Shown here: positions 1 to 20,016 of the stretch, piece after piece
How the letters are laid out: each line of letters begins with the position of its first letter
Position numbering within the stretch: position 1 is the stretch's first letter
Assembly: GCA_046727155.1 (NCBI GenBank)
Contig: JBKPCB010000014.1
Span: 22,695-86,694, forward strand
Direction of reading: 5' to 3'
Length of the DNA stretch: 64,000 bases
From: Candidatus Methylomirabilota bacterium
GTDB taxonomy: Bacteria; Methylomirabilota; Methylomirabilia; Rokubacteriales; CSP1-6
Notes under the pieces: generated by a model
What the model was told of the DNA's origin: nothing
Databases searched by the model: none
What the model saw: the letters and a program-made list of their open reading frames with translations, nothing else
Program-made: the position numbers and the translations under genes

Positions 1-446
1 TAGGCCGAGACCGCATAGACCTCGTCATTGGTCATCGTCTGAGGCTTGTCCATGGGCATGGCGCGCCGGATGTAGTCGAAGAGGATCGGCGCGTAGGGAT
101 ACATACTGCCCGGCGTGACCACGCGGGCATTGGTCGTGAAGGAGCCGATGCCGCCCACCATGGGGCCATAGACCGAGCCGCCCTTGGCCTCTGGGCCATG
201 GCATTCCCGGCACTTGCTCTCGTATACCCGCTTACCGTCGGCAACCGACCCGCGGCCGGCTGGCAGCCCGCGTCCGTCGGAGGTACGGATGTCGATGTTC
301 CACGACGCGATGTCCGCCTCGCTGATGGGTTTCCCAAAGCCCACCGTCGGCGGTGGCGGGTTCTGCGACATCCTCGGCCCCGTCGCGCATGCCGCGGCGA
401 CGAGCGCGACTGCGAGTCCCAGCCCGACGACGCTACGCGATCGCAT
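1..446 (-). CDS. c-type cytochrome partner of sulfite dehydrogenase (SorB/SoxD-like); 3' end beyond window
   Basis: Manual minus-strand translation from ATG at 446-444 gives MRSRSVVGLGLAVALVAAAC (signal/lipoprotein-like) followed by a single CxxCH haem motif (CRECHG). The frame runs off position 1. The start overlaps the sorA stop by 14 nt. Confidence 0.7.
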   Translation of the reverse strand, partial: MRSRSVVGLGLAVALVAAACATGPRMSQNPPPPTVGFGKPISEADIASWNIDIRTSDGRGLPAGRGSVADGKRVYESKCRECHGPEAKGGSVYGPMVGGIGSFTTNARVVTPGSMYPYAPILFDYIRRAMPMDKPQTMTNDEVYAVSA

Positions 447-1746
447 TCTTGACCTCCCCGTTCCCGCTGACCGCCCAGGGGAAGACGCCGTTGTGATGCT
501 GGACGAAGCCGACGATCGCGCGGACCTTCTTGATGTCCTCGACAGTCGGCTGCACATAGCCGGAGCTGTCCACGGCGCGGCTTGCGATGACGGCCGGGCT
601 GCCGTTCCAGTTCCACCGGAAGCGGAAGCGCGTGAGCATCTTGTCGAGCACCGGACCCTCGACTGTCGCCTCCTGCCAGTTTCTCCCGCCGTCCAGCGTG
701 ACATCGACCGCGGTAATGCGGCCCCGCCCGGACCACGCGAACCCCTGGATCTCGTACACGCCCGGGCCGGCCAGTTTCATGCCGCCCGAGGGGCGCGTGA
801 TGACCGACTTGCACTCCATCTCGAAGCTGAAGATGCGCCACTTGCCGTCCGGCATGGGATCGGTGTAGCGCGCCGTCTCGCTGCGGAAGTACCAGGGCTG
901 ATCGGACACTTTGATCCGTCTCAGCCACTTCACCGAGACATTGCCCTCCCACCCCGGGATCAGCACGCGCAGGGGATACCCCTGCTCCGGGCGCAGCATT
1001 TCGCCGTTCTGGCCGTAGACGATCATGGAGTCGTCGAGGACCTTGTCGAGGGGGATCGAGCGCGTATGCGTGGCGCCGTCGGCGCCCTCGAACAACACCC
1101 ACTTCGCCCCCGGCTCGAGGCCCGCTTCGTTGAGCAGCCAGGAGGCCGGGATGCCGGTCCATTGAGCTCCGGACAGCAGCCCATGGGTCTGCTGCACGGT
1201 CGTGGAGGCGTTCTTCAGCCAATCGACAAGCGTGTTCCCGGAGCATTCGAGGAAATGGAATCTGGACACCGAGGGGTACCGAAGCAGGTCGTCCATCGTG
1301 AAGACGAGCGAGCGTTTCACCATGCCGTGGATGACCAGCTTATGGGTCTTCGGATCGATGTCGGCGACGCCGGAGTGGTGCCGCTCGTAGAAGAGCCCAT
1401 TGGGCGTAACGACGCCGAGCTGGTCCTGAAGCGGAGTCATGCTCCAGTCGGACAGATTCTGCCGGTTGACGAACACGTCGGTGCGCCGGCGAAGCACCTT
1501 GGCCTCGAACTTCGAGGGCACCCCGTACTCGCTGGCCGGAATCGGCCGCCCGGCTCTCTGCTCGCTCTCGGGAATCGCGAGCGGGGCCGCCTCGACGACT
1601 CGGGGGCCCACCGACGACGCGATGAGGGCGCCACCGACCATGGCCACTCCCTCGCGAAGGAATCTGCGGCGACTGTGGACGTCGGCCGCGCCTTCGGCCT
1701 CGTCACGTGGGGTGGGTTGTCTGCGCTCCGGCCCGGTGGTTTCCAT
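433..1746 (-). CDS. sorA: sulfite dehydrogenase / sulfite:cytochrome c oxidoreductase, molybdopterin subunit (sulfite oxidase family, SorA/SoxC-like)
   Basis: 437-aa ORF with a twin-arginine signal (SRRRFLREGVAM). Conserved sulfite-oxidase-family Moco and dimerisation-domain sequence blocks, followed directly by a cytochrome c gene. Confidence 0.85.
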   Translation of the reverse strand: METTGPERRQPTPRDEAEGAADVHSRRRFLREGVAMVGGALIASSVGPRVVEAAPLAIPESEQRAGRPIPASEYGVPSKFEAKVLRRRTDVFVNRQNLSDWSMTPLQDQLGVVTPNGLFYERHHSGVADIDPKTHKLVIHGMVKRSLVFTMDDLLRYPSVSRFHFLECSGNTLVDWLKNASTTVQQTHGLLSGAQWTGIPASWLLNEAGLEPGAKWVLFEGADGATHTRSIPLDKVLDDSMIVYGQNGEMLRPEQGYPLRVLIPGWEGNVSVKWLRRIKVSDQPWYFRSETARYTDPMPDGKWRIFSFEMECKSVITRPSGGMKLAGPGVYEIQGFAWSGRGRITAVDVTLDGGRNWQEATVEGPVLDKMLTRFRFRWNWNGSPAVIASRAVDSSGYVQPTVEDIKKVRAIVGFVQHHNGVFPWAVSGNGEVKNAIA

Positions 1747-2158: not shown

Positions 2159-2301
2159 CGGGTCGGTTCTCCCAGAGGGCTCGATCGGTCAACTCGGCCA
2201 CTATGACCAAGCAGGCCTGGAGGCGCAAGCCCGGTCGGTGTCATCTTCCCGCCCTTCATTAACGCGGTGCATCGGATTCAAGCTGCCCGCTGTCTTCGCG
2301 C

Positions 2302-2331
2302 TTGACAAGAGCCTGACCCCGAACAATATAT
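2302..2331 (+). promoter_or_regulatory. sigma70-like promoter TTGACA-N17-AATATA upstream of the TauE gene
   Basis: AT-rich hexamers stand out in GC-rich sequence. They lie inside the longest-ORF extension of TauE. Confidence 0.4.
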
Positions 2332-2354
2332 CTCACGATGTCTCTACGCTCTGG

Positions 2355-3509
2355 ATGACGATGGCAACGTCCTCGGTTTCCTCTGAGTCGGCCGCCGTCG
2401 CCCAACGCGCCGTGCTCGCCCCTCGCTCGCTCGGCGTGGAGTTTCTGCGGGAGCAGGCACCGATCATCGTGGCCGTCTTTGGCCTGGGCGTCGCGGCCAG
2501 CTATCTGCAGCACGGCTTCCTCGTAGGAGGCGAGCGCCCCTTCCCCTTGGCGGGCGTGCCCGTGCCGCTCTGGCACCTGCTGTGGCTCGGCTTTTGGACC
2601 GGCTACACCATGGCGCTCGTGGGCGAGGCAACCGGGATCTTCTCGCTCCCCTACTCCATGTCCATCCTCCGGTTTGACAACGTCCACGTGAGCCCGACCA
2701 ACCTGGTGATCACCGTCATCAATCCGATTGGGGCTCTCCTGGGCTTTCGCCGGACTGGGCAGTGGAATCTCGACTTCGCCCTCTGGCCGTGCCTGGGCAC
2801 TCTCATTGGGTCGCAGGTGGGGCCGTACCTGCGGGTCACCTACTTGAGCGATCCCGTGCCCTTCAAGGCTCTGGTGGGTCTCGCGCTGTTCTGGCTCGGC
2901 TGTCACCTGGTCTGGGAGATTACGCCGTGGTATCTGAGGGGGCGCGAGACGCAGCGTCTCTTCACCGAGCGCTTCCGGGCGCGGGCTCGCGAGATGGCGG
3001 CCGTCGGGCAATTCCCGTCGGGCATCCCGGAAGGATCCCGAATCGAGACCTTGGAGCGCGGGTGGCGACGGATCAGGATCGGCTTTCTGGGCCAGGAGTG
3101 GACCCTGAGCGTCCCGGTGCTCTTTCTCCTCGGCATCGGTGTCGGCGTCGTCGCTTCGACTCTGGGCGTCGGCGGAGGTTTCCTCTTGACACCGCTCCTG
3201 GTCACGCTGTTCAAGCTGCCGATGTATGTCATCGTGGCCGCCACGATCCCCTTCGTCATGCTCCAGTCCATCGTGGGCCTCGTCTCCTACATGCTGGTCC
3301 TCCCAGCTCTGACAGGGCATCTGGACCAGCCCGAGTGGGCATTCGGCTTCTTCACCGCCAGCACCGCCGTCTTCGGTGCCTGGCTGGCGGCCAAGACGCA
3401 GCGCTTCGTCCCCGAGGCCTACCTCAAGCTCGTGGCCGGCGTGGTCACGGGGCTCGGCGGGCTGCTGTACCTCATCAACTACTTCGTGCCGCTGCCGTTC
3501 AGGATATGA
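2355..3509 (+). CDS. TauE/SafE family sulfite exporter-type membrane protein (DUF81)
   Basis: Polytopic membrane protein with two internally repeated 4-TM halves typical of TauE/SafE. The longest ORF starts at 2238, but a sigma70-like promoter (TTGACA-N17-AATATA, 2302-2331) lies inside that extension. I therefore chose the in-frame ATG at 2355. Confidence 0.75.
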   Translation: MTMATSSVSSESAAVAQRAVLAPRSLGVEFLREQAPIIVAVFGLGVAASYLQHGFLVGGERPFPLAGVPVPLWHLLWLGFWTGYTMALVGEATGIFSLPYSMSILRFDNVHVSPTNLVITVINPIGALLGFRRTGQWNLDFALWPCLGTLIGSQVGPYLRVTYLSDPVPFKALVGLALFWLGCHLVWEITPWYLRGRETQRLFTERFRARAREMAAVGQFPSGIPEGSRIETLERGWRRIRIGFLGQEWTLSVPVLFLLGIGVGVVASTLGVGGGFLLTPLLVTLFKLPMYVIVAATIPFVMLQSIVGLVSYMLVLPALTGHLDQPEWAFGFFTASTAVFGAWLAAKTQRFVPEAYLKLVAGVVTGLGGLLYLINYFVPLPFRI

Positions 3510-3604: not shown

Positions 3605-3612
3605 GGCCGGCT

Positions 3613-5552: not shown

Positions 5553-6755
5553 ATGCTCTACGTGAAACGGTTCCGGATTCTGGCGACGACACTCGCGATC
5601 ATTCTCAGCCTGGGCGTAGCCAGCGGGGCCTGGGCCGAACTCGAGTACAAGCCGCTCCCGGCCCAGCAGGAGAAGGGCGATCCCGTCCACATCCGCGTCT
5701 ATCATCAACCGTACTACACCCAGTCGTGGAGCTCATCGGTGATGAAGGTCAAGCAGTTCTGGAAGAAGTACCTGCCGCCGGGCTCGACGGTAACCTACGA
5801 GATCGCGCTCCAGGGCGCCCTCGCCGTGAACGCCATCGTGGCCGACAAGGCCGAGTATGGCTACGGCGGCGACGCGCCCAGCGTCCTGGGGATGACCCAG
5901 CCGCGTGAGAAGGCGGACATCCGCGGCGTCTGGGTGAACGGATACTCGAACTGCTGCCATTGCAACGTGATGATCATCGCCGCTGACGCGCCCTACCAGA
6001 AGTCGCCCGAGGATTACGTGAAGTGGCTGAAGGGCAAGCGGGTCGGCGGCGCCAAGGCCTCGTGCAACGACCGCTGGTTCCGTCAAGTGTACAAGCGCTT
6101 CGGCGTCGAGCCCGAGTCCCACGTGCACCAGAGCTTCGAGGTCACGCGGACGCAGTTCCGGGTGAAGCGCATCGACGCGACTGGGATCTGGGAGCCGCAC
6201 GCCTCGGCAATCTGGCTCCAGGACAAGACCGGCCGCCCGGCCGCGACCGGCGGCGCATTCGGGATGGATGATCTCTCCTCGACCTTCGCCAGCAACAAGT
6301 TCATCAAGGCCAATCCGCGGGCTCACATCGCTATGGCCAAGGCGGAGATCGAGTCCCAGATGTGGCTGATCGATCCCAAGCACGAGAAGGAGCTCATCGA
6401 GGCCCTGGCCAAGGAGACCGAAGGCTACTCCAAGCTGGTGCTGTGGCATTCAATGTACGGCAAATACCCTGACGAAGTGGGCGGCCAGGCCATTCGTGAT
6501 TTCCACCCCGTCATGTACACCGACGACGTCAAGCGGTTGTTCAAGGACGTGAGCGACTTCCTCTGGTCCATCAAGGTCACCTCCCAGCTGTTGCCTGCCG
6601 ACGCCTATCTCGAAGAGCCGCTGGCTGTCGCGGCCAAGGAGCTGGGTGTCCGGCTGCCGCTGGAGGGCGGGTTCATCACGGCGCGACCCATCGAAAAATC
6701 GCCGTACTACGATCCGAAGGCGCTGGAGGGAGTGCCACCGGTTGTGAAGAAGTAG
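5553..6755 (+). CDS. ABC transporter periplasmic substrate-binding protein, NitT/TauT (SsuA/TauA/NMT1-like) family
   Basis: Signal peptide, 400 aa, NMT1/SsuA-like fold signature blocks. Followed by cognate permease and ATPase genes. RBS GGAGG upstream. Confidence 0.8.
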   Translation: MLYVKRFRILATTLAIILSLGVASGAWAELEYKPLPAQQEKGDPVHIRVYHQPYYTQSWSSSVMKVKQFWKKYLPPGSTVTYEIALQGALAVNAIVADKAEYGYGGDAPSVLGMTQPREKADIRGVWVNGYSNCCHCNVMIIAADAPYQKSPEDYVKWLKGKRVGGAKASCNDRWFRQVYKRFGVEPESHVHQSFEVTRTQFRVKRIDATGIWEPHASAIWLQDKTGRPAATGGAFGMDDLSSTFASNKFIKANPRAHIAMAKAEIESQMWLIDPKHEKELIEALAKETEGYSKLVLWHSMYGKYPDEVGGQAIRDFHPVMYTDDVKRLFKDVSDFLWSIKVTSQLLPADAYLEEPLAVAAKELGVRLPLEGGFITARPIEKSPYYDPKALEGVPPVVKK

Positions 6756-6777: not shown

Positions 6778-7743
6778 GTGACCGCGCGCCGCCCAGCCGC
6801 CAGACAAGGCCATATGGCGAAGATCCTGACGAAGACCGCCGCCGCGCCGGCGGCTGAGGCGCGGGTGGAGCCGGCGGTGGTCTACACCCGCCGCCGCATC
6901 CTCTGGCTGCGCACGAAGAAGGCCCTCACCGAGCGATTCTTCTGGCTCGGCTTGCTCGGCATCCTGGCCTTCTTCGTCGGATGGGATCTGGCCTATCGCT
7001 TCGAGCTGCCGCGCATGGAGAAGCTCGAGAGCCCGCTCTACACGTTTCGCGAGTTCACGCTCCCACCGCGGGGGGCGTTGACCTACAACCCGGCGCTGGA
7101 ATCCAAGTGGGGCTACGGTATCTGGGGCACCGCCTGGTACATCGACATCGGAATGAGCGTCTGGCGCATCATTCAGGCCTTCCTGTGGTCCCTGCTGGGC
7201 ATTCCCCTCGGCCTACTGATGGGCTGGAAGCGCTCCATCCGCGATTTCGTATTCGCGCCCTTCGAGCTCATGCGCCCAATCCCGCCCATCTCCTGGGTGC
7301 CGCTGGCCATCGTCATGTTTCCGACTCAAGAGGCGCCCATTGTCTTTCTCTGCGCCATCGCCTCCTTCTTCGCGGTGACCCTCAATACCCTGCTCGGCGT
7401 GGACTCAATCGATCCCGTGTACTTCCGCGCCGCCCGCTGCCTCGGGTCGAGCGAGTGGCAGATCTTCCGCCACGTGATCATCCCGGGCGCCATGCCCTTC
7501 ATCTTCACCGGCATGCTGATCGGACTCGGCGTGGCGTGGTTCTCCCTGGTGGGAGGCGAGATCATCGCCGGCACCTGGGGGCTCGGATACCGGACCATGG
7601 ATGCCTACATGAATGTCGCGACGCCCCAGCTCCTCATCGCGATGTTCACCATCGGGTTCATCGGCATGCTCATGGGGGTCGGGCTTCGCATCCTGCAGCG
7701 GCGCGTGCTCGCCTGGAAAGCCAAGACCGGAGAGACAATCTGA
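6778..7743 (+). CDS. ABC transporter permease, NitT/TauT family (binding-protein-dependent inner-membrane component)
   Basis: 6 TM segments and a conserved EAA-type loop. The start may instead be ATG 6814. Stop overlaps the next start (TGATG). Confidence 0.85.
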   Translation: MTARRPAARQGHMAKILTKTAAAPAAEARVEPAVVYTRRRILWLRTKKALTERFFWLGLLGILAFFVGWDLAYRFELPRMEKLESPLYTFREFTLPPRGALTYNPALESKWGYGIWGTAWYIDIGMSVWRIIQAFLWSLLGIPLGLLMGWKRSIRDFVFAPFELMRPIPPISWVPLAIVMFPTQEAPIVFLCAIASFFAVTLNTLLGVDSIDPVYFRAARCLGSSEWQIFRHVIIPGAMPFIFTGMLIGLGVAWFSLVGGEIIAGTWGLGYRTMDAYMNVATPQLLIAMFTIGFIGMLMGVGLRILQRRVLAWKAKTGETI

Positions 7744-8993
7744 TGCAGGCCCTCCTCGATTTCCTGAAGCGTGTCGAGATCTTCAAGGATCTCGGCCGGG
7801 AGACGCTGGAGAAGATCGCCACCATCTGCGAGGAGAAGCGCCTCCCACGGGGGACCGTCGTCTATCGCACCGGAGAGACCCCCGAGTCCTTCTATATCCT
7901 CAAGCAGGGGGCGGTGAGCCATCCGAGCCTGCTGGGAGGGCGCGGCTCCTCCGACGGGCTCGTCCGCGCGCCGGGCGATCTCTTCGGGCTTGCTGCGGTC
8001 GTGGAAGAAATGAAGCGACGCTTGTTCACCGTCGAGTGTCTCGAGGACACCACGGTATACGCCATCAACGGCGCCCGGCTGCGCGAGATCCTCAAACTGG
8101 ACCCCTCCACCGGCTACGCCGTCATGCAGCGCTTCGCCGGCCTGATGGCCAAGGCCGAGGGGTCCATCCCCGCGCGCACCGGCGCGCTCAGCATCCGAAA
8201 TGCCGGGAAGATCTACGACCCGGAAGGCGTGCACGTGATCGCGGTCGAGGACTGCTCCGTTGAGGTACCGCCCGGGGGGATTTGCGTCGTCGTGGGACCC
8301 TCGGGCTGCGGGAAAACCACCCTCCTCAACACCATCGCCGGCTTCGATAATCTGACCTCAGGAGAAATCTACCTCGACGGGGATCTCATCGCCGCGCCGG
8401 GAAGGGCGCTGAAGCCCGGGCCCGACCGGATCGTGGTCTTCCAGCAGGGCGCGCTGTTTCCGTGGAAGACCGTGCTCGACAACGTCACCTACGGGCCTGT
8501 CATCCAGGGCAAGATGTCACGGAAGGAAAGCGAGGACCACGCGCGGGGCCTGATGGAGAAGGTCGGGCTCGCGGGAATCGAGTCCCAGTATCCGGGAGAG
8601 ATCTCCTCGGGGATGCGGCGCCGGGTCGAGATCGTTCGGGCGCTGATCAACGACCCGAAAATCCTCCTGCTCGACGAGCCCTTCCGCGCCCTGGATGCGC
8701 TGACCAAATCGGTCATGCACGAGTACCTCCTCGAGCTCTACGATCTCTCCCACAAGACCATCTTCTTCATTACCCATGACCTCGAGGAGGCCATCTTCCT
8801 GGGCGACCTGGTCGTGATCATGACAACCCGTCCCGGCCGCGTGAAGAAGCTGATCTCCGTGGATCTCCCCCGCCCTCGCACTTACCGCATGCTGACCTCG
8901 AAGCGCTTCCTGGCCCTCAAACAGGAAACCATCGAGGGCGTGCACGAGGAAGCGCTCAAGGCCTTCGAGGCCGGGGAGCGGGAGCTGGCGTAG
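7743..8993 (+). CDS. ABC transporter ATP-binding protein (NitT/TauT family) with N-terminal cyclic-nucleotide-binding (Crp-like cNMP) domain
   Basis: Residues 1-140 form a classical cNMP-binding beta-roll (IFKDLGRETLEKIA…RTGETPESFYILKQG…). This is followed by Walker A GPSGCGKTT, the ABC signature (EISSGMRRRV), Walker B LLLDEPF and an H-loop. Confidence 0.85.
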   Translation: MQALLDFLKRVEIFKDLGRETLEKIATICEEKRLPRGTVVYRTGETPESFYILKQGAVSHPSLLGGRGSSDGLVRAPGDLFGLAAVVEEMKRRLFTVECLEDTTVYAINGARLREILKLDPSTGYAVMQRFAGLMAKAEGSIPARTGALSIRNAGKIYDPEGVHVIAVEDCSVEVPPGGICVVVGPSGCGKTTLLNTIAGFDNLTSGEIYLDGDLIAAPGRALKPGPDRIVVFQQGALFPWKTVLDNVTYGPVIQGKMSRKESEDHARGLMEKVGLAGIESQYPGEISSGMRRRVEIVRALINDPKILLLDEPFRALDALTKSVMHEYLLELYDLSHKTIFFITHDLEEAIFLGDLVVIMTTRPGRVKKLISVDLPRPRTYRMLTSKRFLALKQETIEGVHEEALKAFEAGERELA

Positions 8994-9003
8994 GGGTGCG
9001 CGA

Positions 9004-10074
9004 ATGAGCCTTGCGAGCGCCGCGAAATGGGCATTGGTCCTGTGGACGCTGGTGTGCGTCGGGCTCGGCTTCTTCCGGTTCGCCGACACCACGTTTCCGC
9101 TGAACCCGCCGCCGGGGGTCCATGGGGAGCTCCACATCGCTCTGCAGGCGATGCGCGCCTATCGATACTGGGGGGCGATCTGGATCGCACCCGCCGCGGC
9201 GCTGTTCCTCGTGTGGCGTCTCAGGCGCGAGGTCGACGAGGACTCGGCGAGCCGGCGACGGGCCGTGGAGCGGAGGCGCCAGCCGGTGGCGACGCGTGTG
9301 AGGAAGGCCGCTTTCAACGTACACACGCTCCGGGGGGCTCTTGGTGTCCTGGCGATCCTCATCGTCTGGCAGATCGCTCAGCCGCTGGGGATTCCCATCA
9401 TCAAGCGGATCCCGCCGCTGTCCGAGGTCGTGTCGCGTTTCTTCGATGATCGCGGCCTCTTCTGGCGCGACAAGTACTGGGCGGGCTGGGTCATCAGCCT
9501 CTTCCGGATCTTCTCCGGCTTCATCCTCGCGCTGCTCATCGGCGTCCCCCAAGGCCTCGCCTGGGGGATCAGCCGAACCATGAAGGCGGTGTCCTTCCCG
9601 GTGTTCGAGATCTTCCGGCCTATTCCCCCGCTCGCCTTCCTGCCGGCCGCCATCTACCTCATGCCGACGGCCGAGCTCTCGATCATCTTCGTGATCTTCC
9701 TGGGCGCCTACTTCACCATCGTCATCAACACCATCAACGGCGTGTACAACGTGGACAAGTCCATGCAGCGGGCCGCACTATCCCTCGGCGCGAGGCGCGG
9801 CGACATCTTCTGGAGAGTCATCTTCCCCGGCACGCTGCCGTCCATCATCACGGGCGCCACCGTGGGAATGGGGATCACGTGGATGGTGCTGGTCGCGGCC
9901 GAGATGATCGCCGGACGCTCGGGGATCGGCTTTCTCACCTGGGAGTCGTATACCGCCGGCGACATTCCGCAGGTGGTCGTCGGTATGGCCAGCATGGGCG
10001 TTGGAGGCGCCATTTGCAGCGCCGTGATATGGCGCCTGGGCGTCAACCTCACCCCATGGCGGAGGCTGTTCTGA
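9004..10074 (+). CDS. second ABC transporter permease, NitT/TauT family
   Basis: Paralog of the 6778 permease with conserved membrane topology and EAA loop region. Confidence 0.85.
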   Translation: MSLASAAKWALVLWTLVCVGLGFFRFADTTFPLNPPPGVHGELHIALQAMRAYRYWGAIWIAPAAALFLVWRLRREVDEDSASRRRAVERRRQPVATRVRKAAFNVHTLRGALGVLAILIVWQIAQPLGIPIIKRIPPLSEVVSRFFDDRGLFWRDKYWAGWVISLFRIFSGFILALLIGVPQGLAWGISRTMKAVSFPVFEIFRPIPPLAFLPAAIYLMPTAELSIIFVIFLGAYFTIVINTINGVYNVDKSMQRAALSLGARRGDIFWRVIFPGTLPSIITGATVGMGITWMVLVAAEMIAGRSGIGFLTWESYTAGDIPQVVVGMASMGVGGAICSAVIWRLGVNLTPWRRLF

Positions 10075-10093: not shown

Positions 10094-10945
10094 GTGATGC
10101 CGAAGGGCGAAGGCCGCGTCGAGTGCCGTGACGTGACGAGGATGTTCGGGGAAGAATGGGCGCGCCAGCTCGTCGTGGATGGTGCCTCCTTCCTGGTCGA
10201 GGCCGGCAAGCTCAATGTGATGGTCGGGCCCTCCGGCTGCGGCAAGAGCACTCTGATCAACCTCATCGCCGGCTACGAGGAGCCGACTCGGGGCGAGATC
10301 CTCATCGACGGCCAGCGCGTGCAAGGCCCTGGGCGCGACCGTCTGGTCGTCTTCCAGGAGACGGCGCTGTTCCCCTGGATGACGTCGTTGGAGAACGTGC
10401 GGTTTGGCCCCCAGGTGCGCGGGATCAATCCGAAGGAGTCGCGGCAGGAGGCCCGCCGACTGCTGGAGAAAGTGGGACTGCGGGGCTTCGAGGACAAGTA
10501 CCCGTCGCAGCTGTCCGGGGGCATGCAGCGCCGCTGCGAGCTCGCGCGAGCGCTCATCAACCAGCCCAAGATCATGCTGATGGACGAACCCTTCCGCGGG
10601 CTGGACGCCATGACCCGCGAGCTGATGCAGGAGTACCTCCTTCGCCTCTTCGAGGAAACACAACTGACGATCCTGTTCGTGACGACCGAGCTGGAGGAGG
10701 CCATCTTCCTCGCGGACCGCCTCTTCATCATGAGCGCGAAGCCGACGAGCGTGAAGATGGTCCTCGACGTCGATTTGCCGCGCCCCCGCGACTTCCACGT
10801 CCTGACCAGCGAGCGCTACGCGGAGCTGAAACAGGTGGCGCTGGAAGCGCTCTACGAGGAGGCGGTCAAAGCCTTCGCCAAGGGCAGCAAGGCTGCCTAT
10901 GACCTCGTGGAGGCCTTCGGCAAGCGAGTCGGGACGGGCGGATGA
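10094..10945 (+). CDS. second ABC transporter ATP-binding protein, NitT/TauT family (no cNMP domain)
   Basis: Walker A GPSGCGKST, signature LSGGMQRR, Walker B LMDEPF, H-loop. Confidence 0.85.
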   Translation: MMPKGEGRVECRDVTRMFGEEWARQLVVDGASFLVEAGKLNVMVGPSGCGKSTLINLIAGYEEPTRGEILIDGQRVQGPGRDRLVVFQETALFPWMTSLENVRFGPQVRGINPKESRQEARRLLEKVGLRGFEDKYPSQLSGGMQRRCELARALINQPKIMLMDEPFRGLDAMTRELMQEYLLRLFEETQLTILFVTTELEEAIFLADRLFIMSAKPTSVKMVLDVDLPRPRDFHVLTSERYAELKQVALEALYEEAVKAFAKGSKAAYDLVEAFGKRVGTGG

Positions 10946-10949
10946 TCCC

Positions 10950-11195: not shown

Positions 11196-11255
11196 TTGAC
11201 GCTCACTTGATGGAAGAGACATACTGAGACGTCCCAGGGCAAAGTTCACGCCCTG
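11196..11255 (+). promoter_or_regulatory. candidate promoter (TTGACG-N18-CATACT) plus CAGGGC-N9-GCCCTG inverted repeat in the leader of the Rieske oxygenase operon
   Basis: Read directly. The inverted repeat at 11235-11255 sits between the putative -10 and the RBS AGGAGG. Confidence 0.35.
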
Positions 11256-11287: not shown

Positions 11288-12475
11288 ATGGCGCGTGGAA
11301 TGGCGGAGTGGGAACGCAGGCCGGCCTTGCCCCCGACCCATTACGTCCATCCGGCGATCTACACGGACCCTGTGATCTTGCGCGAGGAGCAGGAGAAGAT
11401 CTTCTCCAAGGTCTGGTACCTCGCCTGTCATGAGAGCGAGCTGCCGAGCGCCAACGATTACCGCGCCTACCAGCATCCCGCCGGGAAAAACCTGCTCATC
11501 GCGCGCGGCGAGGACGGCAGGATCCGGACCTTCTACAACGTCTGCCCTCACCGCGGCAACACGCTGGTCTACGGCCCCGCCGGGAACGCCAAGCACATCA
11601 CCTGCATCTTCCACGCGTGGGCCTTCAGCACGAAGGGTGACTGCGTCGAGATCACGCGGGAAAAGCAGGGCTATGGCGATCGCCTGAGCAAGAAGGATTA
11701 CGGGCTGCGCGAGGTGCGGACCGAGGTTGGATTCGGCGGTTTCGTCTACGTCAATCTGGACGACAGCGCGGGCCCGCTGGCGGAATTCATCGGTCACGCG
11801 CTCGACGGCATGCTGAAGTGTCTGGAGTCGGAGCCGCTCGAGGTGTTCCACTACCACAAGGCGGTGGTGAACACGAATTTCAAGTTCTGGCACGACACGA
11901 ACAGCGAGTTCTACCACGACTACATGCACTACCACAATCGCCAGACCAGCATGCTCCAGCCGAGCTACTGGGAGCGGGAGTACATCCCCTTCCCGAACGG
12001 CCACGCGCAGGTCGGCGATCAGGTCGTGAAGTACGAGGCCTACGAGGGCTTCAAGGGCCGCGAGCTCTCCTTCCCGGGGCTCGAGCGGAACGGCTGGAAG
12101 ATGGTGGACCTCTTCCCGGGCTTTACCTACAACCTTCGCGGCTCGGCGCTTCGAATCGACACGATCCTGCCGCTCAGTCCGGCAAAGACCGTCATCGAGT
12201 ACCGCGGCCTCGGCCTGAAGGGCGACACCTCCGATCAGCGGACCCAGCGCATCAACGACTACAACTCAATCTGGGGCCCTTTCGGGCGCAACCTGCACGA
12301 GGACCTGTTGGGGGTAACGGGCCAAGGTCGCTGCATCGGGGGTGGGCAAACCTGGATCCTCCATGCTCGGGAGGAAGCGAACAAGATCCACGACGAGATC
12401 GGGATGCGCCACTACTACGCCGAGTGGAGCCGCCGGATGGGGCGTCTGGCGAGCAGCCCGAATGGCGAACGATGA
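11288..12475 (+). CDS. Rieske non-haem iron ring-hydroxylating-type oxygenase, large (alpha) subunit
   Basis: Rieske motif CPHRG-X17-CIFHAW and a mononuclear-iron His/Asp region (DYMHYHN). 395 aa. Strong RBS AGGAGG. Operon with beta, reductase and ferredoxin genes. Confidence 0.85.
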   Translation: MARGMAEWERRPALPPTHYVHPAIYTDPVILREEQEKIFSKVWYLACHESELPSANDYRAYQHPAGKNLLIARGEDGRIRTFYNVCPHRGNTLVYGPAGNAKHITCIFHAWAFSTKGDCVEITREKQGYGDRLSKKDYGLREVRTEVGFGGFVYVNLDDSAGPLAEFIGHALDGMLKCLESEPLEVFHYHKAVVNTNFKFWHDTNSEFYHDYMHYHNRQTSMLQPSYWEREYIPFPNGHAQVGDQVVKYEAYEGFKGRELSFPGLERNGWKMVDLFPGFTYNLRGSALRIDTILPLSPAKTVIEYRGLGLKGDTSDQRTQRINDYNSIWGPFGRNLHEDLLGVTGQGRCIGGGQTWILHAREEANKIHDEIGMRHYYAEWSRRMGRLASSPNGER

Positions 12476-12957
12476 ACACCGCCAATACTGCTGTGAGCGG
12501 CGCGATCGAGCACCAGGTGCGAAACCTCATCTACACGGGTTGTCTGCTGCTCGATGCGAGCGACTTCGGGGGATGGCTGGGCCTGTGCGCGCCAGACTTT
12601 CGCTACTCGATCTCCACCTACAGCCCGGAGATCCGAAAGGATCAGACGTGGCTCGACCACGATTTCGAGGGGATGCAGCACCTGGTCAACATGCTCCCGA
12701 AGCACAACAGCGACCAGACTCCGCTGACCCGCCACGCCACGGTCTACACGATCGACCACGATCCAGCGGCCAATGAAGCGAAGGTGGTGACCTCCGTTGC
12801 CATCTATGCCACTACCCTCGACGGCGGTGAGACCAGCCTGTACGCCCTCGCCCGGTATCACGACGTGGTGGGCCTGGCGGGAACACCCCGATTGAAGCGG
12901 CGGGTCGTACGGCTCGAGACGCGCAGCCTCGGCATCGGGAAACACTGGCCGCTCTAG
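12472..12957 (+). CDS. oxygenase small (beta) subunit, NTF2/SnoaL-like fold
   Basis: 161 aa. ATGA overlap with the alpha stop. Typical beta-subunit size and sequence character. Confidence 0.75.
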   Translation: MNTANTAVSGAIEHQVRNLIYTGCLLLDASDFGGWLGLCAPDFRYSISTYSPEIRKDQTWLDHDFEGMQHLVNMLPKHNSDQTPLTRHATVYTIDHDPAANEAKVVTSVAIYATTLDGGETSLYALARYHDVVGLAGTPRLKRRVVRLETRSLGIGKHWPL

Positions 12958-12976: not shown

Positions 12977-14020
12977 TTGAAGATCCTGCTCAGCGCCAAG
13001 AACCAGGCGTACTCCTTCGACTGCGACCCCGGCGAGAAGATCCTGCACGCCGGCTTGCGCTGCGGTATCGGGCTTCCCTACGAATGCGGCACCGGCACCT
13101 GCGGGACCTGCAAAGGAAAATTGACCCAGGGAGAGGTCCACAACGAATGGCCAGAGGCGCCCGGCCAGGCCGGGCTGCGGCGCGACGCGGGCGAGTTCCT
13201 CATGTGCCAGTGTGTGGCCCGGACCGACTGTTCGCTGCAGGTGGCCAATGTCGTAAAGCCCATGGCGCCGGACGTCTTTCTGCCCGCGGCCGTGGGCAGT
13301 GTCATCCGCCGAAGCACGATGCTCACCCACGACGTGGCGGCGCTGGAGGTGGAACTAGCCGACCCGTTCAGCTTCGAAGCCGGGCAGTTCGTGCTGATGT
13401 CCGTTCCGGGTGTCGTCGGCACGCGAGCCTACTCGATGACGAACTTCGAGCGTAAGGCGAAACAACTCGCGTTCGTCATCAAGAAGAAGCCGGGCGGCCG
13501 GGTGAGCGAATGGCTCTTCCGCGGTGGCATCGAGGACACGCGAGTGGATCTGTTCGGGCCGCTCGGAGTGGCGACCTTTCACCCAGGGATCGGCAAGAGC
13601 CTCCTCTGCATCGCGGGGGGCAGCGGCATCGCCGGCATGATGTCCATCCTGACCTGCGCGGCCGAGGCGCGGCATTTTGATCGCTACCGGGGCCACGTCT
13701 TCTTCGGCGTTCGCACCTCGAGGGACGTCTTCTTTCTCGACGAGCTGGCCGCGCTCCGGACCCGCTTCCCGGATGCCCTCGACGTGACGGTCGCCCTCTC
13801 CGACGAGGCTATCGACGCGGGACTCGAGGCCCGGTATCCGAGGCTTCACTTCGACGCGGGGCTGATCCACGCGGTGGCGGGAGCGCGGATGAAGGGCAGG
13901 TTCGACAACGTCCGGGCGTACGCGGCGGGACCGCCCCCGATGGTGGACGCGACGCTCAGGATGCTCCTGCTGGAGGGACGGCTGACCTCCGACAACATCC
14001 GTTACGACAAGTTCAGCTGA
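12977..14020 (+). CDS. oxygenase reductase component: plant-type [2Fe-2S] ferredoxin domain + FAD/NAD(P)-binding ferredoxin-NAD(P)H reductase
   Basis: CxxxxCxxC…C cluster (CGTGTCGTC) at the N-terminus. RxYS FAD motif (RAYS). GGSGIAG NAD-binding glycine-rich motif. Confidence 0.85.
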   Translation: MKILLSAKNQAYSFDCDPGEKILHAGLRCGIGLPYECGTGTCGTCKGKLTQGEVHNEWPEAPGQAGLRRDAGEFLMCQCVARTDCSLQVANVVKPMAPDVFLPAAVGSVIRRSTMLTHDVAALEVELADPFSFEAGQFVLMSVPGVVGTRAYSMTNFERKAKQLAFVIKKKPGGRVSEWLFRGGIEDTRVDLFGPLGVATFHPGIGKSLLCIAGGSGIAGMMSILTCAAEARHFDRYRGHVFFGVRTSRDVFFLDELAALRTRFPDALDVTVALSDEAIDAGLEARYPRLHFDAGLIHAVAGARMKGRFDNVRAYAAGPPPMVDATLRMLLLEGRLTSDNIRYDKFS

Positions 14021-14031
14021 CAGGGCGTGGC

Positions 14032-14760
14032 ATGGGGAAGAAGTTTCTCTGCCGCACCGACGAGTGCCCGCGCAACGGCATGAAGACCTTCGAGACCGAG
14101 GGCGGGCTGAAGATCCTCGTGGCCAACTCGGGCGACCGGTACTACGGCTACCAGGCCATGTGCCCGCACATGGACGTGGCCCTGGAGGAGGGCTTCTACG
14201 ACGGGGCCGTCATCACCTGCCACCAGCACCTGTGGCAATGGGAAGTCCGGTCCGGCACGCCAATGGGCCAGGCCGAAGCCCCGCTGCAGCAGTATGAGTT
14301 GCACGAGGAGGACGGCGCGCTCTACGTCGTGCCATCGGATCCGGTGAGACAGACGGAGCTCTTTGCCGGCCTGACGGACGAGACGCTGGCAGCCATCGGC
14401 CGCCTGGCCCGACGCGAGACGTTCGAGGAGGGCAGCGTGATCTACCGGCCCGGCGATCCGGCGGACGACCTGTGCGTGCTCGAGTCGGGACGCGTACAGT
14501 TCACCATTGGGCACGGCGAGCACGCGAGCCCCGCCGGCTTCAGCCTGCGGAGTGGTGAGGTGTTCGGCTGGAACGCGCTCCTTGAGGACCAGCCGCAGCG
14601 TATCGCGACGGCCGCCGCGCTGGAACGGTCCTCGGTGCTCCTGCTCGACGGCCGGGAGCTCTTCGGCGTCTTCGAGAAGGACCCGAGGGCCGGATACCTC
14701 GTGATGCGTAGGCTGGCCTCCCTGATCACCCGACACCTGACGCCGATGGGGGCCCGATGA
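14032..14760 (+). CDS. Rieske [2Fe-2S] ferredoxin fused to C-terminal cyclic-nucleotide-binding (Crp-like) domain
   Basis: N-terminal ~105 aa has CPH-X16-CHQH (Rieske ferredoxin). C-terminal ~125 aa is a classical cNMP beta-roll (LFAGLTDETLAAIGRLARRETFEEGSVIYRPGDPADDLCVLESGRVQF…). Confidence 0.8.
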   Translation: MGKKFLCRTDECPRNGMKTFETEGGLKILVANSGDRYYGYQAMCPHMDVALEEGFYDGAVITCHQHLWQWEVRSGTPMGQAEAPLQQYELHEEDGALYVVPSDPVRQTELFAGLTDETLAAIGRLARRETFEEGSVIYRPGDPADDLCVLESGRVQFTIGHGEHASPAGFSLRSGEVFGWNALLEDQPQRIATAAALERSSVLLLDGRELFGVFEKDPRAGYLVMRRLASLITRHLTPMGAR

Positions 14761-15566
14761 GCTCCGAGATTTTGTCCAGCCCCGAGAGGTCCGGGCGGGC
14801 GGGCGGACACGGCGCCGAGATGGCCCAGATCGAGCGGGTCAGCGCCGTGCCGCTCTACCGGCAGCTGCTCGAGATTCTCCGCGAGGAGATCGTCTCCGGG
14901 CGCCTGAAGGCCCACGAGCGGCTGGCGACCGAGCTCGAGCTGATGAAGCGGTTCGGCCTCAGCCGCACCACCGTGCGCCAAACGATCTCACGGCTGCGGA
15001 ACGAGGGCCTGATCTCGGTCCATCGTGGCAAGGGCACCTTCGTCGGCCGGGGCAAGATCGAGCCGGAGCTCTCGGCCCTCACGGGGTTCGTGGAGGACAT
15101 GCGGGCGCTCGGGCTGACGGCATCGGCCCGCGTGCTCGGCGTGGAGAACGTCAAGGCCTCGGAACAGGTCGCCGAGAACCTGGGGGTCCGCCGCGGAGAC
15201 CTGGTCACGAAGATCACGCGAATCCGCCTGGCTGAAGAGGTACCGGTCTCGTTCGAGTACTCCTTCCTGCCGCTCGACCTCGGCCAGCGGGTGGCCCAAG
15301 AAAATCTCGAGGTGTCACCGATCTTTTCGCTCTTCGAGGACAAGTACGGAATCGCGTTGAGCGAAGCCTTCTACCGGATCGAGGCCAGCCGCGCCAACCG
15401 GGTGATCGCCGATGCCCTGGGCATCGAGCGCGGAGCGCCTGTGCTCGCCATCGAGCGCCAAACGCACAGTGTCGCCGGGCAGCCGGTCGACTTCGAGCAG
15501 ATGTACTACCGGGGTGACCGAATCCGGTACACCATGCGCCTCAAGCGTCGTCCGCCGCCGCGATGA
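14757..15566 (+). CDS. GntR-family transcriptional regulator with UTRA effector domain (HutC/FarR subfamily)
   Basis: wHTH GntR signature (RLATELELMKRFGLSRTTVRQTISRLRNEGLI) plus a C-terminal UTRA-like domain. A start at 14820 (MAQIERV) is also possible. Confidence 0.8.
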   Translation: MSSEILSSPERSGRAGGHGAEMAQIERVSAVPLYRQLLEILREEIVSGRLKAHERLATELELMKRFGLSRTTVRQTISRLRNEGLISVHRGKGTFVGRGKIEPELSALTGFVEDMRALGLTASARVLGVENVKASEQVAENLGVRRGDLVTKITRIRLAEEVPVSFEYSFLPLDLGQRVAQENLEVSPIFSLFEDKYGIALSEAFYRIEASRANRVIADALGIERGAPVLAIERQTHSVAGQPVDFEQMYYRGDRIRYTMRLKRRPPPR

Positions 15567-16230: not shown

Positions 16231-16250
16231 CCCTCAAGGAGGAAGGACCA

Positions 16251-20004: not shown

Positions 20005-20016
20005 GCGGCGTCCTCC

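What the first reader, a model, noticed from the sequence alone, without database searches (positions are those of the whole stretch)
7743..8993. ABC-importer ATPase carrying an N-terminal cyclic-nucleotide-binding domain
A full Crp-type cNMP beta-roll precedes the nucleotide-binding domain of one of two ATPases in a NitT/TauT-type importer. This implies direct second-messenger (cAMP/cGMP) gating of uptake, an uncommon regulatory architecture for a nutrient ABC importer. The system also encodes two different permeases and two different ATPases for one binding protein, suggesting an obligate heterodimeric translocator in which only one ATPase is ligand-regulated.
Basis: seen in the sequence. 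Interest (0 to 1): 0.6.

Follow-up and report, generated by a model that had tools for sequence, protein, structure and literature searches.

The report
Sensor domain fused to sulfonate-importer ATPase
One of the two motor proteins of a probable C1-sulfonate (methanesulfonate-like) uptake pump carries a real, conserved sensor domain with a cyclic-nucleotide-binding fold, but it lacks key cAMP/cGMP contact residues, so it probably responds to some other cell-internal signal.

Summary
ORF 7743-8993 (416 aa) is a cNMP_binding fold (aa 1-141) fused to a NitT/TauT-type ABC ATPase. It sits in an SBP-permease1-ATPase1-permease2-ATPase2 operon. The start is genuine, the N-domain is under purifying selection, and at least 90 protein clusters share the fusion.

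The cAMP/cGMP reading is weak. In 91/91 homologues the phosphate-binding-cassette Glu is hydrophobic and the Ser/Thr after the Arg is V/I/L; only the Gly and Arg remain. The domain belongs to a distinct "FG[W/F/L]AA…R-hydrophobic" clade. In related loci the same clade is fused to permease 1 or to the oxygenase's Rieske ferredoxin (also in this window, 14032-14760), or stands alone.

The heterodimer idea is supported. ATPase1 has a deviant signature (ISSGM) but keeps the H-loop His. ATPase2 has LSGGM but no H-loop His. That gives one consensus and one degenerate ATP site.

The locus resembles msmEFGH/msmABCD (methanesulfonate), with sulfite-handling and folate C1 genes.

Best reading: a single, asymmetric, dispensable allosteric sensor, probably for a non-nucleotide anion. 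The ligand and the direction of regulation are unknown. This is a new variant of a known kind.

The parts
7743..8993 (+). ATPase 1 (MsmG-like) of the importer: an N-terminal CNB-like domain fused to a NitT/TauT-type NBD, 416 aa
   Evidence: Pfam PF00027 + PF00005; NCBIfam TauB/SaoA/NtrCD-like; AF2 pLDDT 85; NBD best fold matches are CmpBCD and NrtBCD
7743..8165 (+). CNB-fold sensor domain (aa 1-141): N-helices, 8-stranded beta-roll and C-helix
   Evidence: dN/dS 0.20-0.29
7983..8039 (+). Non-canonical phosphate-binding-cassette equivalent, F81-G82-L83-A84-A85...R93-L94...C99. Glu is replaced by L and Ser/Thr by L; the Arg is kept
   Evidence: alignment to E. coli CRP and MloK1 plus 91-sequence conservation; no match to a PROSITE-style cNMP pattern 2 that matches CRP
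7920..7925 (+). Family-specific His60-Pro61, at a two-residue insertion relative to CRP and MloK1; H is invariant and P is 90/91
8109..8162 (+). C-helix (aa 123-140), joined to the first NBD strand by about 8 residues; the likely allosteric connector
   Evidence: DSSP of the AF2 model; this helix alone is retained in relative L020 after deletion of the beta-roll
8187..8990 (+). NBD of ATPase 1: Walker A GPSGCGKTT (aa 185-193), deviant signature ISSGM (aa 287-291), Walker B LLLDE (aa 308-312), H-loop His345
7729..7734 (+). Shine-Dalgarno-like GGAGAG, 8 nt before ATG 7743
   Evidence: sequence
5553..6755 (+). Periplasmic substrate-binding protein (MsmE-like; NMT1_2/SsuA-type, weak match) with an N-terminal signal-like segment
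6778..7743 (+). Permease 1 (MsmF-like, BPD_transp_1)
9004..10074 (+). Permease 2 (MsmH-like, BPD_transp_1), 33% identical to permease 1
10094..10945 (+). ATPase 2 (plain NBD): consensus LSGGM signature, but H-loop His replaced (VTTE)
11288..12475 (+). Rieske oxygenase alpha subunit, MsmA-like short-spacer type (CPH-X17-CIFH)
   Evidence: 58% identical to a Burkholderia RPE67 plasmid gene annotated as methanesulfonate monooxygenase alpha
12472..12957 (+). Oxygenase beta subunit (Ring_hydroxyl_B/SnoaL_4)
12977..14020 (+). Fer2-FAD-NAD reductase (MsmD/BenC/MmoC-like)
14032..14760 (+). Rieske ferredoxin (MsmC/TmoC-like, aa 1-100) fused to a second CNB-like domain of the same clade (aa ~104-242, nt 14341-14757)
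   Evidence: Pfam Rieske + cNMP_binding at 55 bits; 30% identity, gapless over 140 aa, to the ATPase N-domain; 1285 homologues at E<=1e-5, and all 120 best listed carry both domains
14757..15566 (+). GntR/UTRA (HutC-type) transcription regulator at the end of the operon
2238..3509 (+). TauE/SafE-type sulfite exporter upstream of the importer
433..1746 (-). Sulfite-oxidase-type molybdoenzyme (Oxidored_molyb + Mo-co_dimer)
16214..17137 (+). PanB-like hydroxymethyltransferase (Pantoate_transf), a recurrent partner of this transporter family
   Evidence: loci

Best explanation
Shown by sequence and comparison. The gene encodes ATPase 1 of a heterodimeric-NBD, heterodimeric-TMD NitT/TauT importer (SBP, permease 1, ATPase 1, permease 2, ATPase 2). 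That is the msmEFGH order plus a second ATPase. The importer sits in a cluster for oxidising a C1-type sulfonate, with an MsmABCD-like Rieske oxygenase, a TauE sulfite exporter, a sulfite-oxidase-type enzyme and folate C1 enzymes. The N-terminal 141 residues are a genuine CNB-fold domain under selection, from a distinct 'FG[W/F/L]AA…R-hydrophobic' clade. Only one such domain exists per transporter. It sits on the subunit that supplies the Walker A/B and H-loop residues of the only consensus ATP site. Its C-helix runs straight into the NBD.

Inferred. The domain is an accessory allosteric sensor. Binding of a cytoplasmic small molecule shifts the C-helix and so tunes NBD closure or ATP hydrolysis at the consensus site, which gates uptake post-translationally. 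The ligand is most likely not cAMP or cGMP. The ribose-contacting Glu and the phosphate-contacting Ser/Thr are always hydrophobic, while the anion-binding Arg is invariant. I therefore favour a small anion tied to the pathway: the sulfonate itself, sulfite, or another metabolite. The same clade is fused to permease 1, to the oxygenase's Rieske ferredoxin, or stands alone in related loci. This suggests one signal coordinates import with electron delivery to the oxygenase. The direction of regulation is not determined. Feedback inhibition, which would limit production of toxic sulfite and formaldehyde, is my preferred guess.
For: - Architecture and fold.
- True start and selection.
- PBC substitutions in 91/91 sequences, with R93, H60, G82 and A84 invariant. 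A PROSITE-like cNMP pattern matches CRP but not this protein.
- Distinct clade: the ATPase-, permease-, ferredoxin-borne and stand-alone domains are 24-39% identical to each other. They are only 14-21% identical to neighbouring Crp regulators, CRP and MloK1, and share the FG[WFL]AA…R[ILV] motif.
- The nearest single-domain relatives in an exhaustive search are nearly all 'FGW..R' type.
- The same module sits on other subunits. On the permease: L005 and L007. On the ferredoxin: window 14032-14760 and a large family. Stand-alone next to a PanB-like gene: L005 and L011.
- The domain is dispensable. Close orthologues lack it: P0040/L004 and L020, where the beta-roll is deleted but the C-helix remnant remains.
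- NBD asymmetry is conserved in six loci.
- Closest solved NBDs are NrtBCD and CmpBCD, in which one of two different NBDs carries a single regulatory domain (PMC10945777).
- Pathway context: (PMC4433239).
- Precedent for a CRP-family effector domain using a non-nucleotide organic anion: NtcA with 2-oxoglutarate (PMC6243067).
Against: - No ligand was tested or docked, so the non-cNMP inference rests on motif logic only.
- The PBC Arg and Gly, the main phosphate contacts, are retained, so weak or atypical cNMP binding is not excluded.
- The FGW-type clade also occurs outside this pathway, for example fused to a 4HB_MCP module and in many stand-alone proteins of unknown context. This weakens the idea of a pathway-specific ligand.
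- The ATPase and ferredoxin fusions vary independently. L023 has the ATPase fusion with a plain ferredoxin; L006 has the reverse. Coordinated control is therefore optional.
- The relative orientation of the domains in the AF2 model was not validated: pTM is 0.67 and no PAE or coordinates were available.
- The substrate of the importer is inferred from context only. The oxygenase alpha subunit lacks the 26-residue Rieske spacer found in every proven MSA monooxygenase.
Confidence: 0.5

Rival explanations
1. Genuine second-messenger gating. The domain binds cAMP or cGMP (or another cyclic nucleotide) despite its atypical cassette, and it couples sulfonate uptake to global carbon or energy status.
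For: The fold is a canonical CNB domain. Pfam scores 50 bits, and the best structural matches are CNG channels, PKG, GlxR and MloK1. The Gly and Arg that hold the cyclic phosphate are invariant. Crp-family regulators sit beside many related operons, so cNMP-type signalling could be linked to this pathway.
Against: The Glu that binds the ribose 2'-OH is F/L/I in 91/91 sequences. The residue after the Arg is a bulky V/I/L rather than S/T/A. The best small solved relative by sequence, 3MDP, is an uncharacterised protein that also lacks the Glu and Arg. The neighbouring Crp regulators themselves lack the PBC Glu and Arg. The domain clade is clearly separated from bona fide cNMP binders.
Confidence: 0.2
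2. A docking or assembly module rather than a small-molecule sensor. The single CNB-like domain pairs through its C-helix with another CNB-like domain (the ferredoxin's, or a stand-alone one), or with a signalling protein. This would tether the oxygenase system to the importer or recruit a regulator, much as NrtC-CRD serves as the PII docking platform.
For: CRP/FNR-type domains dimerise through their C-helices (established knowledge). Only one such domain exists per transporter, so it lacks a partner within the complex. A second domain of the same clade sits on the ferredoxin in this operon. Stand-alone copies occur in related loci. In NRT the single CRD works by binding PII, not by substrate trans-inhibition (PMC10945777).
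Against: The fusions occur independently. L001 and L011 have the ATPase fusion with no ferredoxin nearby. L023 has the ATPase fusion with a plain 114-aa ferredoxin. L006 has the ferredoxin fusion with a plain transporter. The invariant pocket-region residues (R93, FG-AA, H60) are easier to explain by ligand binding. No multimer prediction could be run.
Confidence: 0.15
3. A ligand-less structural appendage. The fold is a retained relic that only stabilises ATPase 1 or helps select the correct heterodimer partner, and has no signalling role.
For: Two of the three canonical ligand contacts are lost. Close relatives work without the domain. Its dN/dS is 3-4 times higher than that of the NBD.
Against: dN/dS of 0.2-0.3 still indicates clear purifying selection. 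The invariant residues cluster in the cassette region (R93, F81, G82, A84, H60). The same clade was recruited independently onto three different proteins of the pathway, which is hard to explain for an inert appendage.
Confidence: 0.1
4. Annotation artefact: the real start is internal and the CNB-like region is not translated with the ATPase.
For: Several database entries for close relatives are only 276-289 aa long and begin inside or after the C-helix.
Against: At least one of these short entries, L020, reflects a real deletion of the beta-roll and not a different start choice. In the window the reading frame is continuous. It has an SD and TGATG coupling, 91 full-length homologues and purifying selection.
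Confidence: 0.02

Closest known systems
Cyanobacterial NrtABCD / CmpABCD (NitT/TauT family; PDB 8w9m, 8wm7, 9ua1)
   Same: These are the best structural matches for the NBD (Foldseek E 1e-27 to 1e-24, TMt ~0.9, 33-37% identity). They have two different NBD subunits, and only one carries an extra regulatory domain, so there is a single asymmetric sensor per transporter (PMC10945777).
   Different: There the regulatory domain is C-terminal and SBP-like (NrtA fold). It binds nitrate and docks PII. Those systems have one permease type (an NrtB homodimer). Here the domain is N-terminal with a CNB fold, and there are two different permeases.
MsmEFGH methanesulfonate ABC importer with MsmABCD monooxygenase (Methylosulfonomonas methylovora, Filomicrobium; PMC4433239)
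   Same: The gene order SBP-permease-ATPase-permease is the same. In Filomicrobium an extra NitT/TauT ATPase follows msmH. Both clusters have an oxygenase with alpha, beta, Rieske ferredoxin and Fer2-FAD-NAD reductase components, a sulfite exporter, a sulfite dehydrogenase, and GcvT or PanB-like genes.
   Different: The paper read here (PMC4433239) mentions no CNB-like domain on MsmG or MsmC. The alpha subunit here has the ordinary 17-residue Rieske spacer, not the 26-residue spacer found in every organism proven to grow on MSA. Sequence identity to authentic MsmE-H could not be measured.
MetNI, ModBC and MalK-type regulatory domains on ABC importer NBDs
   Same: These are accessory cytoplasmic domains fused to the NBD that adjust transport post-translationally according to intracellular state.
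   Different: They are C-terminal and have different folds. MetNI and ModBC work by substrate-induced dimerisation of two identical domains (as summarised in PMC10945777).
CRP/FNR-superfamily effector domains with non-cNMP ligands (for example NtcA with 2-oxoglutarate) and uncharacterised stand-alone CNB proteins (PDB 3MDP, Gmet_1532)
   Same: The same beta-roll plus C-helix fold. The canonical cassette residues are lost but the pocket is kept. 3MDP is the best single-domain solved match (E 6e-11; TMt 0.77).
   Different: NtcA has an HTH output domain and is a homodimer. 3MDP has no known ligand or partner. Here the output is an ABC NBD.
CNB-domain fusions to other transporters (MFS-CNBD fusions; N-terminal cNMP domains on PCAT/HlyB-type ABC exporters such as HetC)
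   Same: A CNB-fold module fused to a transporter, noted in a review as a 'plug and play' regulatory domain (PMC10710835; PMC10986499 listed).
   Different: Those are secondary carriers or exporters with fused TMD-NBD. None is a binding-protein-dependent importer NBD. The papers I read here described no experimental characterisation of any of them.

Membership tests
ABC transporter NBD (PF00005), NitT/TauT subfamily | Walker A, Q-loop, signature, Walker B with catalytic Glu, and H-loop His | tested here: met
   GPSGCGKTT, VVFQ, ISSGM (deviates from LSGGM/Q), LLLDEP, ITHD. ABC_tran scores 105 bits. The best NCBIfam hits are TauB, SaoA and NtrCD, but all below their equivalog cut-offs.
Pfam cNMP_binding (PF00027) / CNB fold | Score above the gathering threshold; 8-stranded beta-roll with N- and C-helices | tested here: met
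   50.0 bits against a 27.5 cut-off. AF2 secondary structure and Foldseek matches to CNG, PKG, GlxR and MloK1 domains at E 1e-11 to 1e-8.
Functional cAMP/cGMP-binding CNB domains | PBC Gly-Glu: the Glu binds the ribose 2'-OH | tested here: not met
   Gly82 is invariant, but position 83 is F/L/I in 91/91 sequences and L in the window.
Functional cAMP/cGMP-binding CNB domains | PBC Arg that binds the cyclic phosphate | tested here: met
   R93 is invariant in 91/91 sequences and aligns with CRP R82 and the MloK1 PBC Arg.
Functional cAMP/cGMP-binding CNB domains | A small Ser/Thr/Ala directly after the PBC Arg | tested here: not met
   Position 94 is V/I/L in the family and L in the window. A PROSITE-style pattern 2, written from memory, matches CRP but not this protein.
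Functional cAMP/cGMP-binding CNB domains | Measured binding of cAMP or cGMP | not testable with these tools
   Requires ITC, DSF or crystallography.
CRP/FNR transcription factors | C-terminal HTH_Crp DNA-binding domain | tested here: not met
   There is no HTH. The C-helix is followed by an ABC NBD.
MsmEFGH methanesulfonate importer | SBP-permease-ATPase-permease operon next to an MsmABCD-type oxygenase and sulfite-handling genes | tested here: met
   Window gene order compared with PMC4433239 Table 1.
MsmEFGH methanesulfonate importer | Sequence orthology to M. methylovora or Filomicrobium MsmE-H, and transport of MSA | not tested
Methanesulfonate monooxygenase MsmA | Rieske motif CXH-X26-CXXH | tested here: not met
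   The window alpha subunit has CPH-X17-CIFH. It belongs to the short-spacer 'MsmA-like' group, for which growth on MSA is unproven. It is 58% identical to a Burkholderia RPE67 gene annotated as MSAMO alpha.
Heterodimeric ABC NBD pair with one degenerate ATP site | Complementary loss of catalytic or signature residues in the two paralogues | tested here: met
   A1 has xSSGx plus the H-loop His. A2 has LSGGM but T/S in place of the His. This holds in the window, L001, L004, L005, L006 and L007. The catalytic consequence is not testable here.
MetNI/ModBC-type trans-inhibition | Two identical regulatory domains that dimerise on ligand binding | tested here: not met
   Only ATPase 1 carries the domain; ATPase 2 is a plain NBD.

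The most novel reading that the evidence does not exclude
A dedicated, non-nucleotide-binding clade of CNB-fold domains (FG[W/F/L]AA…R-hydrophobic) acts as a pathway-wide post-translational switch for C1-sulfonate catabolism. By binding the sulfonate, sulfite or a related anion at the retained cassette Arg, the same module gates import when fused to the ABC ATPase or the permease. It gates electron delivery to the oxygenase when fused to the Rieske ferredoxin. This would be the first ligand-gated Rieske ferredoxin and the first CNB-gated binding-protein-dependent importer.
Probability: 0.3. Interest if true: 0.75.

Novelty: new variant of a known kind. Interest (0 to 1): 0.55.

Why it matters
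Post-translational control of ABC importers is known for only a few systems: MetNI, ModBC, MalK, OpuA, and NRT/Cmp. All of these use C-terminal domains of other folds. A CNB-fold sensor placed at the N-terminus of the catalytically competent NBD of an asymmetric importer would add a new regulatory solution.

It also offers a tractable model. There is one sensor and one consensus ATP site, and natural domain-less orthologues can serve as controls.

The wider pattern may matter more. The same non-canonical CNB clade sits on the ATPase, the permease, a Rieske ferredoxin and small stand-alone proteins of one sulfonate/C1 pathway. This points to an unrecognised ligand for a large group of proteins that databases label 'cyclic nucleotide-binding'. 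It also suggests coordinated control of uptake and oxidation in a pathway that releases toxic sulfite and formaldehyde.

Finally, it warns against inferring cAMP/cGMP signalling from a PF00027 hit alone.

Tried and rejected
- **Internal start or untranslated N-domain: rejected**. The short database entries of close relatives are either genuine beta-roll deletions (L020) or genuinely domain-less orthologues (L004).
- **Authentic MsmA: rejected as a membership claim.** The Rieske spacer is 17 residues, not 26.
- **Exhaustive representative search with the N-domain.** The protein's own family did not appear among the top hits, presumably because its 50% cluster representative lacks the domain. 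Multi-CNB eukaryotic proteins dominated by summed score. The useful result was that the single-domain hits are mostly 'FGW…R' type.
- **Context of stand-alone hit P0251:** a 735-bp contig, uninformative.
- **tblastn of the N-domain against plasmids:** no match.
- **Literature searches.** Searches for CNB-domain ABC importers, for MSAMO plus cyclic nucleotide, and for 3MDP/Gmet_1532 found nothing describing this fusion.
- **Promoter/terminator scan.** One promoter-like site at 11196-11225, between ATPase 2 and the oxygenase genes, which is at chance level. I did not rely on it.
- **Obligate pairing of the ATPase and ferredoxin CNB domains: considered, and weakened by independent occurrence**.
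- **Heme or metal cofactor via His60/Cys99 (CooA/FNR-like): considered.** Cys99 is present in only 76/91 sequences, so I did not pursue it.
- **Taxonomy of the window: not established.** Close homologues include a Candidatus Rokuibacteriota entry. The cluster look-up gave no organism names.
Full report
**1. Observation**

The ORF at 7743-8993 (+) encodes 416 aa. Its ATG overlaps the TGA of the upstream permease gene (TGATG), and a GGAGAG lies 8 nt upstream. Pfam finds cNMP_binding (aa 32-118, 50 bits against a 27.5 cut-off) followed by ABC_tran (aa 169-314, 105 bits). The best NCBIfam hits for the NBD are TauB, SaoA and NtrCD. All fall below their equivalog cut-offs, so this is a NitT/TauT-type NBD without a named orthologue.

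The frame is open further upstream, to 6981. That stretch translates to Arg/His/Pro-rich off-frame sequence overlapping the permease gene, and homologues start at or within a few residues of M1. Of the 120 best homologues, 91 are full length and carry both domains. One group is 75-87% identical. A second group, from Methylophilaceae and Burkholderiales, is 50-55% identical. dN/dS against two relatives is 0.20-0.29 for the N-domain and 0.06-0.07 for the NBD.

AlphaFold2 with the family alignment gives pLDDT 85 and pTM 0.67. It shows a beta-roll and a C-helix (aa 123-140) that leads through about 8 residues into the first NBD strand. The isolated N-domain model matches CNB domains of CNG channels, PKG, GlxR and MloK1, and the uncharacterised 3MDP. 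The fusion is real, translated and under selection.

**2. The transporter**

The operon is tightly packed, with gaps of 22, -1, 10 and 19 nt. It reads SBP (5553-6755), permease 1 (6778-7743), ATPase 1 with the CNB domain, permease 2 (9004-10074) and ATPase 2 (10094-10945). The permeases are 33% identical and the two NBDs are 49% identical.

The two ATPases carry complementary deviations in their motifs:

| Subunit | Signature | H-loop |
|---|---|---|
| ATPase 1 | ISSGM (deviant) | THD (His kept) |
| ATPase 2 | LSGGM (consensus) | VTTE (no His) |

The same split, xSSGx plus His against LSGGM plus T/S, holds in six loci from different lineages, whether or not a CNB domain is present. By the standard geometry of ABC dimers (established knowledge), this gives two unlike sites:

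- One consensus site, built from ATPase 1's Walker A/B and H-loop plus ATPase 2's signature.
- One doubly degenerate site.

The CNB domain sits on the subunit that supplies the catalytic residues of the competent site. The closest solved NBDs are NrtBCD and CmpBCD. These also pair two different NBDs, only one of which carries a regulatory domain (PMC10945777).

**3. Is it a cyclic-nucleotide binder?**

I aligned the family to E. coli CRP and MloK1. The family's cassette reads F81-G82-[F/L/I]83-A84-A85…R93-[V/I/L]94.

- The Gly and the Arg are invariant.
- The Glu that contacts the ribose 2'-OH is never present (0/91).
- The small Ser/Thr/Ala after the Arg is always a branched hydrophobic residue.

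A PROSITE-style cNMP pattern, also from memory, matches CRP but not this protein. The family has its own invariant residues: H60, at a two-residue insertion with near-invariant P61, plus L53, G56, G110 and near-invariant E139. C99 is present in 76/91.

It is nevertheless clearly not a decaying relic. I read it as a repurposed sensor. The retained Arg at the helix N-terminus suggests an anionic ligand. NtcA, a CRP-family protein whose effector is 2-oxoglutarate, is a precedent for non-nucleotide use of this pocket (PMC6243067). No ligand was tested here, so this is inference.

**4. The same module elsewhere in the pathway**

The last structural gene of the oxygenase set in this window (14032-14760) is a Rieske ferredoxin fused to a second CNB-like domain. 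Pfam scores are 41 bits for Rieske and 55 bits for cNMP_binding. The domain aligns without gaps over 140 residues, at 30% identity, to the ATPase N-domain, and shows the same cassette changes (FGW…RI). This ferredoxin fusion is a large family: 1285 hits at E<=1e-5, and all 120 best listed carry both domains. FGW, the Arg and the Rieske Cys/His ligands are conserved.

In related loci the module is fused to the N-terminus of permease 1 instead (L005, L007). It also stands alone next to a PanB-like gene (L005, L011). All these copies are 24-39% identical to one another. They are only 14-21% identical to the Crp-type regulators encoded nearby, to CRP and to MloK1. The closest single-domain relatives in an exhaustive search are nearly all 'FGW[AS]AL…R' proteins of 134-180 aa. 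One is fused to a 4HB_MCP module, so the clade is not confined to this pathway.

The fusions come and go independently:

| Locus | ATPase 1 | Permease 1 | Rieske ferredoxin |
|---|---|---|---|
| Window | CNB fused | plain | CNB fused |
| L023 (A1 81% identical) | CNB fused | plain | plain, 114 aa |
| L006 | plain | plain | CNB fused |
| L005, L007 | plain | CNB fused | CNB fused |
| L004 | plain | plain | none in the locus |
| L020 | beta-roll deleted | plain (contig cuts its start) | not seen; contig ends in a truncated ORF after the reductase |

In L020 the remnant 'DDPSTGYALMQRFAGLMAKAEG' C-helix sits right after the permease stop. The domain is thus accessory and modular, as expected for a regulator.

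**5. What the system transports**

The window also holds these genes:

- a TauE sulfite exporter (2238-3509);
- a sulfite-oxidase-type molybdoenzyme (433-1746, minus strand);
- a Rieske oxygenase with alpha, beta and reductase components plus the Rieske ferredoxin;
- a GntR regulator;
- FTCD_C and a PanB-like hydroxymethyltransferase.

Relatives add formate dehydrogenase, FTHFS, FolD, GcvT and PurU.

This is the gene set described around msmEFGH/msmABCD in Filomicrobium. That set includes the extra NitT/TauT ATPase after msmH, a sulfite exporter, SoxCD, and GcvT or PanB-like genes (PMC4433239). The alpha subunit here has the ordinary 17-residue Rieske spacer. Every organism proven to grow on MSA has a 26-residue spacer. 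A 58%-identical plasmid gene in Burkholderia RPE67 is annotated as MSAMO alpha. I therefore call this an Msm-like system for a C1-type sulfonate, with the substrate unproven.

**6. Mechanism**

Steps shown:

- There is one CNB-fold domain per complex.
- It is fused through its C-helix to the NBD of the competent ATP site.
- It is conserved and under selection, yet dispensable.
- Its cassette is non-canonical.
- The same clade sits on other components of the pathway.

Steps inferred:

- Ligand binding repositions the C-helix, which is the usual output element of CNB domains, and changes NBD closure or hydrolysis.
- The ligand is a cytoplasmic anion rather than a cyclic nucleotide.
- The purpose is to match uptake to the cell's capacity to handle sulfite and formaldehyde. 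Where the ferredoxin carries the domain, electron delivery to the oxygenase would be matched too.

Only one subunit carries the domain. The MetNI/ModBC mechanism, which depends on dimerisation of two identical regulatory domains, therefore cannot apply. The nearer analogy is the single asymmetric CRD of NrtC or CmpC, which can work by docking a partner (PII) or by activation (PMC13287603 abstract).

The rivals are true cNMP gating (0.2), a docking module (0.15), an inert appendage (0.1) and an annotation artefact (0.02).

**7. Novelty**

Regulatory domains on importer NBDs and CNB domains are each well known. CNB fusions to MFS carriers and ABC exporters have been noted (PMC10710835; PMC10986499). 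I found no description of a CNB-fold domain on a binding-protein-dependent importer ATPase, on its permease, or on a Rieske ferredoxin.

Database pipelines already label these proteins. JGI calls the ATPase 'NitT/TauT family transport system ATP-binding protein' and the ferredoxin 'toluene monooxygenase system ferredoxin subunit'. NCBI calls members of the ferredoxin family 'cyclic nucleotide-binding domain-containing protein'. The architecture is therefore catalogued but not interpreted.

Verdict: a new variant of a known kind, of moderate interest (0.55). Interest would be higher if the pathway-wide non-nucleotide sensor reading proves true.

Noticed in passing
window 14032-14760 (+): A Rieske [2Fe-2S] ferredoxin of the oxygenase system is fused at its C-terminus to a second CNB-like domain of the same non-canonical clade (FGW…RI). 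It belongs to a large conserved family of ~242-aa proteins that JGI annotates as 'toluene monooxygenase system ferredoxin subunit'. A ligand-sensing ferredoxin would be unusual in its own right.
   Followed up: partly
L005 12071-13413 and L007 8183-9508; stand-alone copies at L005 19092-19556(-) and L011 ~14589-14978(-): In related loci the same CNB-like module is fused to the N-terminus of permease 1 rather than to the ATPase. It also occurs as a ~150-aa stand-alone protein next to a PanB-like gene. In L005 the permease fusion appears split or mis-called, with a 74-aa ORF just upstream.
   Followed up: partly
L020 494-600: A close relative (NBD 89% identical) has lost the beta-roll. It keeps the C-helix remnant 'DDPSTGYALMQRFAGLMAKAEG' in frame immediately after the permease stop codon, which looks like a recent in-place deletion of the sensor.
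   Followed up: yes
L001, L008-L013 (Methylophilaceae, Burkholderiales, Pelomicrobium sp. G1, Roseateles, Alphaproteobacteria BRH_c36): This is a second locus type with the cNMP-ATPase but no Rieske oxygenase. A Crp-type regulator is usually encoded next to it. The genes are PanB-like, SBP, two adjacent permeases, cNMP-ATPase, ATPase 2, MTHFR fused to DUF5981 and, in most, FolD, with PurU in L001-L003 and L013. It resembles a tetrahydrofolate-dependent C1 route (cf. chloromethane cmu/metF/folD/purU, from memory). It may indicate an oxygenase-independent fate for the imported compound.
   Followed up: partly
window 11288-12475 (+): The oxygenase alpha subunit is of the 'short-spacer MsmA-like' type (CPH-X17-CIFH). 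PMC4433239 notes this group is annotated as MSA monooxygenase in several methylotrophs without proof of MSA use, so its substrate is open.
   Followed up: partly
window 3376-5010 (+) and 5019-5480 (+): A DUF4340 protein and a 153-aa protein with no Pfam match (N-terminal hydrophobic segment) lie between TauE and the SBP gene. The same pair occupies this position in L004, L023 and L024. Their function is unknown.
   Followed up: no
window 10899-11144 (+), within the 342-nt gap after ATPase 2: A small hydrophobic ORF follows ATPase 2. Gene callers report a 57-64-aa gene at the same position in L004, L020, L023 and L024. It may be a conserved small membrane protein of the transporter.
   Followed up: no
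L023 13407-16090 and L024 13690-16544: In two close relatives a thioredoxin-domain/DsbH-like protein (~720 aa) and an AhpC/TSA-type peroxiredoxin are inserted between the transporter and oxygenase genes. The window lacks this insertion.
   Followed up: no
window 19381-21291 (-): A flavocytochrome c sulfide dehydrogenase flavoprotein (FCSD) and a cytochrome c gene lie downstream, adding to the sulfur-oxidation content of the region.
   Followed up: no
window 7743-8993 versus 10094-10945, and five related loci: The two ATPase paralogues show a conserved complementary degeneracy. One has an xSSGx signature with the H-loop His, and the other has LSGGM without the His. This predicts one active and one degenerate ATP site in this whole transporter family, independent of the CNB domain.
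   Followed up: yes
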